Shown in pieces: positions 22,594-26,085 of a DNA stretch of 64,000 nt. Positions within the stretch are counted from its first letter, which is position 1; each line of letters begins with the position of its first letter. The position numbers and the translations under genes are program-made. The notes under the pieces were generated by a model, which was not told the origin of the DNA, ran no database searches, and saw only the letters and a list, made by a program, of their open reading frames with translations. The stretch comes from Clostridia bacterium. Its GTDB lineage: Bacteria > Bacillota > Clostridia > Oscillospirales > QAMX01. Location: the NCBI GenBank assembly GCA_017532825.1, contig JAFXIT010000024.1, positions 31,846 to 95,845 on the forward strand, given 5' to 3'.

Positions 22594-22824
22594 TTACTTT
22601 TTGTTATGGCAACAGCCGCCGCAGGCCGAAGCGTGGGGGCATCCGCCCTCTCCGCATCCTGCAGAGCCGCCCTTGACCGATACCGAGAAGCCTTGAAATA
22701 CACGGTCAAGCTCGTTTGCGCCGCAGCCGGGGCAGGACACGCTTTTGCTGTCCTTCTCGGCGATGGAGCAGTTTACCTCGAAGACCTCACCGCAGGAGTT
22801 GCACTTAAAGGTGTAAAAGGGCAT
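22594..22824 (-). CDS. FmdB-family zinc-ribbon protein with a Gly/Cys-rich tail
   Basis: MPFYTFKCNSCGEVFEV...CPGCG is the CxxC_CxxC_SSSS pattern. It starts 9 nt after typA. Confidence 0.8.
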   Translation of the reverse strand: MPFYTFKCNSCGEVFEVNCSIAEKDSKSVSCPGCGANELDRVFQGFSVSVKGGSAGCGEGGCPHASACGGCCHNKK

Positions 22825-22833
22825 ATGCTCTCC

Positions 22834-24681
<1,848 letters not shown>

Positions 24682-24949: not shown

Positions 24950-25025
<76 letters not shown>

Positions 25026-25061
25026 AAAAAAAACTCTTGTTCGAAAGAACAAGAGTTTTTT
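25026..25061. terminator. Terminator after tRNA-Thr, bidirectional in form
   Basis: AAACTCTTGTTC-GAAA-GAACAAGAGTTT with 6 T downstream and 9 A upstream. Confidence 0.85.
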
Positions 25062-25235
25062 AGTTATATTCGCCTACGGCGAGTTATATTGCTTCGCAGT
25101 GATATTTAGGCTACGCCTAAGTGATATTGCCCGTTGGGCAGTTAAGAGGCGAATATAATATAACTTTTGCGACAGCAAAAATATCACTATGCCGCAAGGC
25201 ATAATATCACTCTGTGCGTAGCACAGAATATCACT
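25062..25235. repeat. Array of seven AGTKATATT 9-mers in two convergent blocks, each followed by a distinct short hairpin
   Basis: Plus-strand copies start at 25062, 25082, 25098 and 25120. Reverse-complement copies (AATATCACT) start at 25180, 25203 and 25227. Interleaved hairpins are CGCC-TAC-GGCG, TTAGGC-TAC-GCCTAA, GCCC-GTT-GGGC, TTTTGC-GACA-GCAAAA, ATGCC-GCAA-GGCAT and CTGTGC-GTA-GCACAG. Confidence 0.85.
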
Positions 25236-25241
25236 AGAACC

Positions 25242-25270
25242 TTGTCGCTTCACCGCTTTTATGCTATAAT
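25242..25270 (+). promoter_or_regulatory. Promoter of the PHP gene
   Basis: TTGTCG, 17-nt spacer, TATAAT preceded by TGC. Confidence 0.6.
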
Positions 25271-25290
25271 ACACCCAAGGCGGTGATATT

Positions 25291-26085
25291 ATGAAAATGA
25301 CGGTAGACAACGATCTGCACATCCACTCCACCCTTTCCTCCTGCTCGGGCGATCCCGAACAGACCCCCGAAAGGATACTTCGCTACGCCGAGGAAAACAG
25401 CATAAGGACGGTATGCATTACCGACCATTTCTGGGACGAGGCGGTCGAGGGTGCGTCGGGCTGGTACAAGCCCCAGAACTTTCCCCACATCTCCCACTCA
25501 AAGCCCCTTCCCAAGGCAGAGGGCATACGTTTTCTTTTCGGCTGTGAGACCGAGCTTGATAAATTTCTGACCCTTGGGCTCTCTCCCGAGAAGTACGGCG
25601 AATTTGACTTCATCGTCATACCGACGACCCACTTCCACATGAGGGGCTTTACCCTTTCCGACGGGGAATCGGCAGACACCTCCGCCAGGGCTCGTGCTTG
25701 GTTTAAGCGGCTCAACGCCCTGCTTGATATGGACCTTCCCTTTCACAAGATCGGTCTTGCCCACCTCACCTGTCAGCTGATAGCCCCGACCCACGAGGAA
25801 TATCTTGAGGTATTAAACAAGCTTCCAAAGGAGGAGCTTAGGGCTGTATTTACCAAGGCCGCAGGGCTTGGGGTCGGCATTGAGCTCAACCGTTCCGATT
25901 TCAGCTTTGCCGAGGGCGATGCCGAGGCAGTCACGAGGATATACAAGGTCGCAAGGGACTGCGGATGCAAATTCTATTTCGGAAGCGATGCACACCATCC
26001 CGCAGGACTCGACGGCGCTCCCGCCGTCTTTGAGAGGGCGGTCGAGCTGCTTGGGCTTACCGAGGACAATAAATTCCTGATATAA
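25291..26085 (+). CDS. PHP-family (polymerase/histidinol-phosphatase-like) metal-dependent phosphoesterase
   Basis: DLHIHSTLSSCSGD, ITDHFW, GCETE and GSDAHHP motifs. Confidence 0.75.
   Translation: MKMTVDNDLHIHSTLSSCSGDPEQTPERILRYAEENSIRTVCITDHFWDEAVEGASGWYKPQNFPHISHSKPLPKAEGIRFLFGCETELDKFLTLGLSPEKYGEFDFIVIPTTHFHMRGFTLSDGESADTSARARAWFKRLNALLDMDLPFHKIGLAHLTCQLIAPTHEEYLEVLNKLPKEELRAVFTKAAGLGVGIELNRSDFSFAEGDAEAVTRIYKVARDCGCKFYFGSDAHHPAGLDGAPAVFERAVELLGLTEDNKFLI

What the first reader, a model, noticed from the sequence alone, without database searches (positions are those of the whole stretch)
25062..25290. Modular array of seven AGTKATATT 9-mers in two convergent blocks, each followed by a different self-complementary hairpin
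**Seen:**
- The array starts immediately after the tRNA-Thr terminator.
- Four plus-strand 9-mers (starts 25062, 25082, 25098, 25120) and three reverse-complement copies (starts 25180, 25203, 25227) are spaced 16-24 nt apart.
- Six of the seven inter-repeat spacers are small GC-rich palindromes. Their sequences differ but pairing is kept, with loops TAC, TAC, GTT, GACA, GCAA and GTA.
- Left and right 9-mers are mutually complementary. A transcript or single strand could therefore fold into three stacked 9-bp helices, with a pair of side hairpins at each junction.
- An eighth copy, GGTGATATT (25282-25290), overlaps the RBS/start region of the PHP gene.
- The rightmost array copy lies just upstream of that gene's -35.
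- The flanking terminator has a longer U-run for the minus strand (9) than for the tRNA strand (6).

**Established:** the core TATCACT fits the WATCACW heptad bound by the RHH omega/ParB-type repressors of inc18 plasmids. Those heptads are contiguous, however, and no such gene is present here.

**Inference:** this is either an iteron/operator array for an unidentified DNA-binding protein controlling the PHP gene, or a structured minus-strand ncRNA of about 200 nt. I know of no described element with this layout.
Basis: partly seen in the sequence, partly recalled or inferred. Interest (0 to 1): 0.6.

Follow-up and report, generated by a model that had tools for sequence, protein, structure and literature searches.

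The report
Two-armed Gut-1 repeat element behind tRNA-Thr
The array is a real, complete copy of the orphan "Gut-1" element of gut Clostridia, and related loci link this element for the first time to a small four-helix-bundle protein gene also found inside ribosomal-RNA intervening sequences.

Summary
There are eight exact AGTKATATT 9-mers, four on each strand, at 25062-25235 and nowhere else in 64 kb (0.44 expected by chance). All seven spacers are hairpins.

It is not undescribed. The left arm matches Rfam Gut-1 (RF01706) at 49.4 bits (cut-off 50); the right arm matches on the opposite strand. Equivalent copies elsewhere score 51-73 bits.

More than 100 two-armed copies were found in Oscillospirales gut and rumen genomes:
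- The arrangement is always left block then right block.
- The hairpins covary strongly.
- A covarying long-range helix (P1) joins the first 9-mer to the centre.
- Each copy sits flush behind the terminator hairpin of a co-oriented gene, tRNA or tmRNA.

The proposed stacked 9-bp left:right helices are not supported. The "eighth copy" is the ribosome-binding site of the PHP gene.

New lead: the most frequent neighbour is a PF05635 four-helix-bundle gene ("23S rRNA intervening-sequence protein"). Such genes from many bacteria carry inverted arrays of 7-9-nt repeats, and the repeat sequence tracks the protein lineage.

Best reading (identity firm, mechanism inferred): this is an ORF-less copy of that module, with exposed heptads read in trans by the PF05635 protein. 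It is not an operator specific to PHP.

The parts
24950..25025 (+). tRNA-Thr (GGT), last gene of the tRNA-Asp/tRNA-Thr unit. The element lies directly downstream and is co-oriented with it.
   Evidence: ARAGORN and Rfam tRNA at 70.4 bits. In 19 of 51 related loci the element directly follows a tRNA or tmRNA gene.
25026..25061 (.). P0: terminator hairpin (A9 run, 9-bp stem plus A:T extension, T6 run), flush with the first 9-mer. It can terminate in both directions at this locus.
   Evidence: repeat I2. A strong hairpin flush with L1 is present in 38 of 40 related loci, at -11 to -26 kcal/mol.
25062..25139 (+). Left arm, equivalent to the Gut-1 motif. It runs L1 25062-25070, hpA 25071-25081, L2 25082-25090, hpB 25091-25097, L3 25098-25106, hpC 25107-25119, L4 25120-25128, hpD 25129-25139.
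   Evidence: Rfam Gut-1 at 49.4 bits (cut-off 50, E 4e-9) over 25061-25132. Exact 9-mers. Hairpin covariation.
25064..25074 (+). 5' strand of long-range helix P1 (TTATATTCGCC). It competes with the local hairpin hpA for the CGCC.
   Evidence: Repeat I3. 98.7% paired across 41 elements, with 19 compensatory cells. Chosen by RNAalifold and by the minimum-free-energy fold.
25140..25156 (+). Asymmetric centre: a degenerate fifth left repeat (AGTTAAGA) followed by GGCGAATAT.
   Evidence: Conserved as AGTTnnnn-GGCGAATAK in 55 oriented elements.
25148..25158 (+). 3' strand of helix P1 (GGCGAATATAA). It overlaps the first two bases of R1.
   Evidence: G-U pairs on the + strand outnumber A-C pairs 9 to 2.
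25157..25235 (+). Right arm, a mirror image of the left arm.
   Evidence: Exact 9-mers. Rfam Gut-1 on the - strand at 30.7 bits (E 2e-4). Hairpin covariation.
25242..25270 (+). Promoter of the PHP gene (TTGTCG-17-TATAAT), 6 nt after R4. It is a neighbour, not part of the element.
   Evidence: The spacing between R4 and the -35 is conserved in orthologous PHP loci.
25282..25290 (+). GGTGATATT, the Shine-Dalgarno region of the PHP gene. It is not a repeat of the array.
   Evidence: Not conserved as a 9-mer in orthologues; GGTGAT is the common ribosome-binding site in this clade.

Best explanation
**What it is**

The 174-bp array is a complete two-armed copy of the Gut-1 element (Rfam RF01706). 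It is one of many ORF-less copies of a repeat-array module. In its full form that module carries a PF05635 four-helix-bundle gene, the same gene family found inside ORF-containing intervening sequences of 23S rRNA.

**Shown**
- The element works as a folded single strand: seven covarying hairpins plus the long-range helix P1.
- Its left and right repeats are always reverse complements of each other, even in subfamilies that use a different repeat sequence.
- It sits flush behind the terminator hairpin of a co-oriented upstream gene, tRNA or tmRNA.
- PF05635 genes are flanked or preceded by such inverted arrays, and the repeat sequence tracks the protein lineage.

**Inferred**
- The hairpins act as zero-length connectors. 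They present the short linkers (core GTGATAT on the left, ATATCAC on the right) as a string of adjacent single-stranded heptads. This is the equivalent of the contiguous heptamer repeats seen in other lineages.
- Those heptads are the recognition sites of the oligomeric PF05635 protein, supplied in trans from elsewhere in the genome.
- The two inverted arms are the ends of a selfish, IVS-like module that settles behind terminators.
- The position in front of the PHP promoter reflects that insertion preference, not a dedicated PHP operator.

Whether the active single strand is RNA or DNA is not resolved.
For: **Identity as Gut-1**
- The left arm scores 49.4 bits; equivalent copies score 51-73 bits.
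- Seed members of the family have the same layout.

**A family**
At least 92 are hairpin-spaced arrays, almost all from Oscillospirales.
- Only 2 of 120 hits in viral contigs are such arrays.
- 40 of 55 oriented elements are exactly 4+4, always left block then right block.

**Structure**
- 91.6% of cells pair against 65.4% when shuffled (0 of 500 shuffles). 28 of 31 pairs show changes on both sides, and there are 291 compensatory cells.
- P1 is 98.7% paired with 19 compensatory cells.
- RNAalifold picks P1 and five of the seven local hairpins.

**Recognition of sequence**
- 8 of the 9 positions are near-invariant across 40 elements and 8 copies each.
- Spacer length varies from 7 to 17 nt (41 nt in one copy) yet is always flush with the repeats.

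**Mirror rule across subfamilies**
- GUGAAAU pairs with AUUUCAC, ATGAAAT with ATTTCAT, GTGAAGT with ACTTCAC, and others.

**Link to PF05635**
- The gene lies directly downstream of R4 in 9 of the ~115 genome-scan loci screened, plus one more cut by a contig end.
- In the reciprocal test, 30 of 60 PF05635 loci have a 6-mer at least 3 times forward and at least 3 times inverted, against 0 of 1200 shuffles.
- The arrays flank the ORF in many loci, including 23S rRNA helix-45 intervening sequences.
- The motif tracks the protein cluster.
- Rfam Gut-1 above the cut-off lies 100-250 nt upstream of the gene in 8 of 20 loci, mostly in the order tRNA, Gut-1, gene.
- A close solved homologue, 2RLD, has five chains.
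- The Coxiella intervening sequence has tandem heptamers upstream of its S23p ORF, and terminal inverted repeats that RNase III cuts (PMC4990558).

**Turnover at the same site**
- Orthologous PHP loci carry arrays with other heptads (ATGTAAT/ATTACAT, ACGATGT) or no array at all.
Against: - No PF05635 gene lies in this 64-kb window. Its presence elsewhere in this genome was not checked.
- Only about 8% of arrays have the gene next to them.
- The motif-protein correlation could reflect common descent of a linked module rather than direct recognition.
- No binding has been shown.
- The protein has no known catalytic function that would explain mobility, and no target-site duplication was seen.
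- Strand signals conflict:
  - P1 has G-U on + (9 against 2).
  - An invariant U-G would extend left-arm hairpins on +.
  - G..A loops (GNRA or GNA type) lie on the - strand in the left arm and on the + strand in the right arm.
  - Wobble pairs are nearly absent in the hairpins (11 G-U and 18 A-C among 851 pairs).
- The terminator directly upstream argues that little + strand RNA is made here.
Confidence: 0.5

Rival explanations
1. One or both arms are transcribed as a structured non-coding RNA that acts on its own. The PF05635 gene is only a frequent neighbour.
For: - Strong covariation and stable folds.
- Rfam classifies Gut-1 as an sRNA.
- In some subfamilies a + strand terminator follows R4.
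- One right-arm-only copy lies in a 3' UTR.
- Here the terminator has a 9-U run for a minus-strand RNA.
Against: - No conserved promoter was seen on either strand.
- The left arm starts flush after a terminator, so + strand RNA needs read-through.
- In many loci the left hairpin has no U-run on the - strand.
- Near-absence of G-U pairs is unusual for an RNA.
- It does not explain why left and right repeats stay reverse complements across subfamilies without pair-specific covariation.
- It does not explain the reciprocal PF05635 association.
Confidence: 0.15
2. It is a purely selfish IVS-like or MITE-like element whose two arms only need to pair with each other. In transcripts the arms form a stem that RNase III cuts, which removes the insertion harmlessly. 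No specific protein reads the heptads.
For: - ORF-containing intervening sequences of 23S rRNA have the same inverted arrays, and these are cut by RNase III in Coxiella.
- There are multiple copies per genome and near-identical duplicates (L050, L058, L087).
- Assemblies break at the array.
- The site upstream of PHP shows turnover.
Against: - If pairing were all that mattered, the repeat sequence could drift copy by copy. Instead 8 of 9 positions are invariant across species.
- The K/M position does not covary between arms.
- With hairpin spacers the left:right helices are only 7-9 bp, interrupted by four-way junctions, and lose to the P1 fold by about 18 kcal/mol.
- Half elements exist on their own.
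Confidence: 0.15
3. It is a duplex-DNA operator or iteron array. A DNA-binding protein, possibly the PF05635 protein, binds the eight 9-bp sites on double-stranded DNA and controls the adjacent promoter (here PHP).
For: - The same motif in both orientations is what duplex recognition predicts, with no pair-specific covariation.
- R4 lies 5-6 nt from the -35 in all PHP orthologues.
- In 8 loci the -35 starts at the last T of R4, mostly in front of PF05635 genes. That would fit autoregulation.
Against: - Spacer covariation that preserves hairpins has no role on duplex DNA.
- Spacing of 16-26 bp (more in some copies) destroys helical phasing.
- Helix P1 covaries.
- Many copies have no downstream promoter, or face a convergent gene or a terminator.
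- Neighbouring genes are unrelated to each other.
Confidence: 0.1
4. It is a two-way transcription insulator. In each arm every hairpin is followed by a U-containing 9-mer in the inward direction, so the arms form cascades of weak terminators that stop read-through from either side.
For: - It always lies between transcription units, directly after a terminator.
- L1 is more U-rich (AGTTTTATT) where the left hairpin lacks its own T-run.
- hpD is followed by AGTTTT in many copies.
Against: - The linkers start with AG and carry few U.
- The GUGAAAU subfamily has only two U per linker.
- Stems of 2-6 bp are too short for efficient intrinsic termination.
- It does not explain the invariant sequence or the PF05635 link.
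Confidence: 0.05

Closest known systems
Gut-1 RNA motif (Rfam RF01706; Weinberg et al. 2010, Genome Biol 11:R31)
   Same: - Three or four small covarying hairpins separated by a conserved GUGAWAU(U) linker, from human-gut Clostridia.
- The left arm aligns over the whole 77-position model.
- Seed sequences BAAZ01025322 and BAAZ01000095 are the same GUGAUAUU subtype, one of them also behind a tRNA and terminator.
   Different: - The window copy scores 49.4 bits, just under the curated 50.
- The Rfam model covers only one arm. The mirrored second arm, helix P1, the flush upstream hairpin and the gene context are not part of the published description.
- That description says only that the motif is found in human-gut sequences.
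ORF-containing intervening sequences (IVS) of 23S rRNA with the S23p / PF05635 gene (Leptospira, Coxiella)
   Same: - Inverted arrays of tandem 7-nt repeats bound the module.
- The PF05635 gene is the only cargo.
- Insertion is at stable-RNA genes.
- In Coxiella the repeats form the stem that RNase III cuts.
   Different: - Here there is no ORF between or next to the arms.
- The site is behind a tRNA terminator, not inside rRNA helix 45.
- The repeats are separated by hairpins instead of being contiguous, so a long RNase III-type duplex cannot form.
REP/BIME elements of enterobacteria and their RAYT transposases
   Same: Short, structured, multi-copy extragenic elements at the 3' ends of transcription units, in alternating orientation.
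   Different: - In REPs the palindrome itself is the conserved unit. Here the palindromes vary freely and the linkers are conserved.
- No Y1 transposase is associated with the arrays. The one seen near a PHP orthologue is an unrelated IS200-type insertion.
Omega (RHH) repressor operators of inc18 plasmids: contiguous WATCACW heptads in direct or inverted orientation
   Same: - TATCACT fits WATCACW.
- There are several copies in both orientations upstream of a promoter.
- In other PF05635 lineages the repeats are contiguous heptads.
   Different: - In this element the heptads are not contiguous on duplex DNA.
- The associated protein is a four-helix bundle, not a ribbon-helix-helix protein.
- The motif differs between lineages.
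Repeat-RNA/protein pairs such as TRAP with its GAG repeats, or type III toxin-antitoxin (ToxIN) arrays
   Same: The idea of an oligomeric protein reading a string of short repeats on a single strand, with the array placed next to the protein's gene.
   Different: - No homology to either system.
- ToxI repeats are identical 36-nt units processed by an endoribonuclease toxin.
- Here the units are 7-9 nt with variable hairpins, and they occur in two inverted arms.

Membership tests
Gut-1 RNA (RF01706) | Covariance-model score at or above the curated gathering score (50 bits) | tested here: inconclusive
   The window's left arm scores 49.4 bits (E 4e-9) over the full model; the right arm scores 30.7 bits on the - strand. 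Equivalent arms in related loci score 51-73 bits.
Gut-1 RNA (RF01706) | Successive small hairpins supported by covariation, separated by a conserved GUGAWAU linker | tested here: met
   91.6% paired, and 28 of 31 pairs show changes on both sides.
Gut-1 RNA (RF01706) | Same sequence subtype and context as seed members | tested here: met
   Seed members BAAZ01025322, BAAZ01000095 and BAAZ01000085 carry AGUUAUAUUCGCC...GUGAUAUU...GGCGAAUAUAAUAUCAC, the same two-armed layout.
Gut-1 RNA (RF01706) | Acts as a transcribed non-coding RNA | not testable with these tools
   No expression data were available. Strand indicators conflict.
PF05635 / S23p intervening-sequence-type module | Two inverted arrays of the same short repeat | tested here: met
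   Four plus four exact copies. The same rule holds in 30 of 60 PF05635 loci.
PF05635 / S23p intervening-sequence-type module | PF05635 gene between or beside the arrays | tested here: not met
   No homologue in the 64-kb window (tblastn best E 0.56). The gene is present beside 9 of the ~115 screened arrays elsewhere, plus one more cut by a contig end.
PF05635 / S23p intervening-sequence-type module | Located inside 23S rRNA helix 25 or 45 and excised by RNase III | tested here: not met
   It lies behind tRNA-Thr. Cleavage cannot be tested here. The left:right duplex is weak.
Omega/ParB-type RHH operator (inc18) | At least two contiguous WATCACW heptads on duplex DNA | tested here: not met
   The motif fits, but copies are 16-24 bp apart with hairpin spacers.
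Omega/ParB-type RHH operator (inc18) | Cognate RHH repressor gene nearby | not tested
   Only the ten ORFs nearest the array were scanned against Pfam, and none is an RHH protein.
REP/BIME | The conserved unit is the imperfect palindrome itself | tested here: not met
   There are 14-37 different stem sequences per hairpin position among 40 elements, while the linkers are invariant.
CRISPR array | Direct repeats of about 23-50 nt separated by unique, non-palindromic spacers, all in one orientation | tested here: not met
   The repeats are 9 nt, lie in two orientations, and have palindromic spacers of 7-15 nt.

The most novel reading that the evidence does not exclude
Gut-1 arrays and the tandem heptamers that flank PF05635 ("23S rRNA intervening-sequence protein", Avd-like) genes are one system found across bacteria. 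An oligomeric, probably pentameric, four-helix-bundle protein reads strings of single-stranded heptads. In Oscillospirales these are displayed between zero-length hairpin connectors. The protein and its arrays together form a selfish module that colonises terminator-proximal sites behind tRNA and tmRNA genes and loops of rRNA helices. ORF-less copies such as this one are kept in step with the protein's specificity in trans.
Probability: 0.35. Interest if true: 0.75.

Novelty: new member of a known kind. Interest (0 to 1): 0.55.

Why it matters
- Gut-1 has been an orphan Rfam family since 2010, with nothing known beyond "human gut only".
- PF05635 is a large protein family with solved structures but no known function outside diversity-generating retroelements.
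- Placing Gut-1 in named gut and rumen Clostridia gives it an organism to work in.
- Showing that it is half of a mirrored element with a covarying closing helix revises its structure.
- Linking it reciprocally to PF05635 genes and to the heptamer repeats of rRNA intervening sequences turns two unexplained objects into one testable protein-nucleic acid pair.
- For this window alone, the practical message is that the array should be annotated as a Gut-1-type repeat element, not as a PHP operator.

Tried and rejected
1. **Stacked left:right 9-bp helices.** Rejected. There is no pair-specific K/M covariation, the energy is worse, and RNAalifold does not choose them.
2. **Loop-loop kissing between left and right hairpins.** Only one of nine pairings was marginal (hpA-hpG, 10 against 5.2 expected, p = 0.015 uncorrected). 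Not supported.
3. **Phage or plasmid origin.** Only 2 of 120 viral-contig pattern hits are real arrays.
4. **Integrase attachment site or genomic island at the tRNA.** The neighbours are housekeeping genes (BipA, GNAT, RluD-like, UvrB, UvrA), with no integrase.
5. **Transposon with target-site duplication.** No duplications were seen at the ends by eye.
6. **-10-like or sigma-trap reading of KATATT.** This fails for the GUGAAAU subfamily.
7. **Anti-Shine-Dalgarno mimicry, and sequestration of the PHP ribosome-binding site by R3** (11-nt match between 25200-25210 and 25283-25293). The match is not conserved in orthologues.
8. **Chi-like, DNA-uptake or DnaA-box motifs.** The 9-mer occurs only in the cluster, and its sequence does not fit.
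9. **Conserved flanking gene families.** None was found on the left. On the right only the PF05635 cluster recurs.
10. **Deciding the active strand from G-U against A-C counts.** The result is contradictory.
11. **Literature searches** for the 9-mer and for Gut-1 gave nothing beyond the 2010 paper.
Full report
**1. What is in the sequence**

The region reads as follows: tRNA-Asp, then tRNA-Thr (24950-25025), then a terminator hairpin with an A9 run before it and a T6 run after it (25026-25061).

After that comes the array, without a gap:
- L1 AGTTATATT, hpA cgcctacggcg
- L2 AGTTATATT, hpB gcttcgc
- L3 AGTGATATT, hpC taggctacgccta
- L4 AGTGATATT, hpD gcccgttgggc
- centre agttaaga-GGCGAATAT
- R1 AATATAACT, hpE tttgcgacagcaaa
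- R2 AATATCACT, hpF atgccgcaaggcat
- R3 AATATCACT, hpG ctgtgcgtagcacag
- R4 AATATCACT

An exact search finds eight AGTKATATT copies, four per strand. All lie in 25062-25235 and there are none elsewhere in 64 kb. The chance expectation is 0.44, and 0 of 100 shuffles reached eight.

Six nucleotides after R4 lies a TTGTCG-17-TATAAT promoter, followed by a PHP-domain gene at 25291-26085. The neighbours are housekeeping genes: BipA, a GNAT, an RluD-like synthase, UvrB and UvrA. There is no integrase or repressor next to the array. Both strands fold much better than shuffles.

**2. It is a known family**

At Rfam's gathering thresholds only the two tRNAs are reported. A permissive search of the region gives two hits:
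- Gut-1 (RF01706) at 49.4 bits (cut-off 50, E 4e-9) over 25061-25132 on the + strand.
- A second Gut-1 match at 30.7 bits over 25176-25255 on the - strand.

Gut-1 is an orphan motif from Weinberg et al. 2010. The paper says only that it is found in human-gut sequences. Its seed alignment contains members with the same GUGAUAUU linkers, and their unmodelled flanks show the same mirrored second block. One of them also lies behind a tRNA and terminator. Equivalent left arms in other genomes pass the cut-off at 51-59 bits.

**3. A large, conserved family with a fixed architecture**

Almost all are Oscillospirales MAGs (Acutalibacteraceae, Ruminococcus, Oscillospiraceae) from gut and rumen. At least 92 are hairpin-spaced arrays by a strict test, and several of those that failed it are also real. 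In viral contigs only 2 of 120 hits are such arrays.

The order is always left block then right block. Of 55 oriented elements, 40 are exactly 4+4. Eight of the nine repeat positions are almost invariant.

The hairpins differ from locus to locus but stay paired on an alignment of 41 elements:
- 91.6% of cells pair, against 65.4% in shuffles (0 of 500) and 32-39% when the partner is slid.
- 28 of 31 pairs have changes on both sides, and there are 291 compensatory cells.

A long-range helix, P1, joins L1 plus CGCC (25064-25074) to GGCGAATATAA (25148-25158). It is 98.7% paired with 19 compensatory cells. For example, TTATATT, TTTTATT and TTCTATT pair with AATATAA, AATAAAA and AATAGAA respectively. 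P1 competes with hpA, which also covaries. RNAalifold independently chooses P1 plus five of the seven local hairpins.

**4. What is not supported**

The proposed stack of left:right 9-bp helices fails on three counts:
- The variable K/M position shows no pair-specific covariation. Several elements read TTTT on the left and CCCC on the right.
- The zipper fold scores -45 kcal/mol against -64 for the minimum-free-energy fold with P1.
- Loop-loop kissing between the arms is not supported either.

GGTGATATT at the PHP start is the clade's GGTGAT ribosome-binding site and is not conserved as a 9-mer.

**5. Position**

A strong hairpin lies flush against L1 in 38 of 40 loci. It is the terminator of a co-oriented upstream unit.
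- The left neighbour is on the same strand in 34 of 47 cases, and most exceptions have a tRNA in between.
- In 19 of 51 loci the element directly follows a tRNA or tmRNA gene.
- The left genes are unrelated to one another.
- The right neighbour points either way (30 against 12).
- Thirteen of 55 copies have a strong promoter just after R4, and in eight of them the -35 starts at the last T of R4. Other subfamilies have a terminator there.
- Half elements exist on their own.

**6. Which strand, and RNA or DNA**

The indicators disagree:
- P1 carries G-U on the + strand (9 against 2 A-C).
- An invariant U-G would extend the left-arm hairpins on + and the right-arm hairpins on -.
- Loops with the G..A signature (GAA, GCA, GTA, GCAA, GAAA, GTAA) lie on the + strand in the right arm and on the - strand in the left arm. 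The two arms are therefore true mirror images.
- Wobble pairs are almost absent in the hairpins: 11 G-U and 18 A-C among 851 pairs. That is unusual for an RNA.

I cannot decide between RNA and single-stranded DNA.

Duplex-only recognition is unlikely. Spacer lengths range from 7 to 17 nt (41 nt in one copy), yet every spacer is a hairpin flush with the repeats. The repeats are brought side by side only when the hairpins fold.

**7. The lead that changes the picture**

The only recurrent neighbour is a 117-120-aa protein encoded directly after R4 in 9 loci, plus one more cut by a contig end. It belongs to PF05635, the "23S rRNA intervening-sequence protein" family, at 99 bits. Its closest solved relative is 2RLD, which has five chains.

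I then fetched 80 metagenomic loci by protein similarity alone.
- **Closest relatives (74-84% identity):** preceded by GUGAUAUU two-armed arrays.
- **Relatives at about 50-65% identity:** the same architecture but with other repeats, always with the right repeat the reverse complement of the left. Examples are ATGAAAT/ATTTCAT, ATGATATT/AATATCAT, GTGAAGT/ACTTCAC, TAATGAAGA/TCTTCATTA, GTGAAAT/ATTTCAC and GTGATGT/ACATCAC.
- **Others, mostly at about 46-56% identity:** flanked by contiguous tandem heptamers upstream and their reverse complements downstream of the ORF. This group includes copies inside 23S rRNA helix 45, and others lie behind a tRNA terminator.

Thirty of 60 loci have a 6-mer at least three times forward and at least three times inverted, against 0 of 1200 shuffles. 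The repeat sequence follows the protein clusters. Rfam Gut-1 above its cut-off (54-73 bits) lies 100-250 nt upstream of the gene in 8 of 20 loci, mostly in the order tRNA, Gut-1, gene.

The literature records tandem heptamers (GACAGAT) upstream of the S23p ORF of the Coxiella intervening sequence. It also records terminal inverted repeats there that RNase III cuts (PMC4990558). I found no paper that links Gut-1 to this protein family.

**8. Turnover at this very site**

PHP orthologues in other species keep the promoter sequence. Upstream of it they carry arrays with different heptads: ATGTAAT/ATTACAT in L325 and ACGATGT in L328. L327 and L329 have no array. This fits repeated colonisation or replacement at a favoured site better than a dedicated PHP operator.

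**9. Conclusion**

*Firm:*
- The feature is real and is a two-armed Gut-1 element, widespread in Oscillospirales.
- It is structured as a single strand and sits flush behind terminators.

*Well supported:*
- It belongs to the same kind of module as the inverted repeat arrays that accompany PF05635 genes. This copy lacks the gene; none lies in the window.

*Inferred:*
- The exposed heptads are read by the PF05635 protein in trans.
- The arms act as the ends of a selfish, IVS-like element.

*Open:*
- Whether the active form is RNA or DNA.
- How the element moves.
- Whether it affects the PHP promoter.

Noticed in passing
L325 2299-3350 and L326, compared with L328 2290-2560: A 158-aa Y1 (IS200/IS605-type, PF01797) transposase gene with structured flanks is inserted just downstream of the PHP orthologue in two metagenome contigs. 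The related L328 shows the empty site (…cttcattttttatt|cgaaaaatgatat…). It carries no heptad arrays.
   Followed up: partly
L014, L088, L112, L116, L118, L119, L120, about 40-90 nt to the right of R4: A conserved stretch (…TTTGAGATAGG…AAAGTATGTAACCCACTATGACACTTTCA…) follows the element in seven loci from different species. The TGAGACAG part can pair with the 3' half of hpG (GTGAGAC…GTCTCAC). It may be another structured element or an alternative pairing.
   Followed up: no
window 25200-25210 and 25283-25293: There is an 11-nt perfect complementarity between the end of hpF plus R3 (CATAATATCAC) and the PHP ribosome-binding site plus start codon (GTGATATTATG). It is not conserved in orthologues, so it probably follows from the GGTGAT Shine-Dalgarno sequence.
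   Followed up: yes
L001 1-130 (same species, another sample): The same PHP-proximal array is joined to a different left flank: another terminator followed by AGATATATT-cgccttcggcg. Contigs L003 and L004 break about 30 nt upstream of PHP. The array is therefore a repeat that breaks or chimerises assemblies, or the left flank differs between strains.
   Followed up: partly
L118 and L048, hairpin between R2 and R3: The spacer is 41-44 nt and contains a nested hairpin (…gaaatatctcgcc-loop-ggcgaggtattc…). It looks like an insertion within a hairpin, yet the outer stem is kept.
   Followed up: no
L271, L273, L274, L277 (PF05635 loci behind tRNAs): The 3' half of the tRNA terminator plus its T-run (for example cggcgattttt) occurs twice, on either side of the first heptad array. 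This may be a target duplication or an insertion into the terminator.
   Followed up: no
L255 674-855: A 6S RNA gene (61.8 bits) lies between two tRNA genes, directly upstream of a Gut-1 array and a PF05635 gene.
   Followed up: no
L083 (Acinetobacter higginsii): The pattern scan hit 121 times in a 66-bp-period tandem repeat filling 8 kb. This is unrelated to Gut-1 and matches by chance.
   Followed up: no
window 22606-24147 (+): A 513-aa ORF with no Pfam match overlaps the BipA gene (22834-24681, -) on the opposite strand. It is probably a spurious shadow ORF.
   Followed up: no
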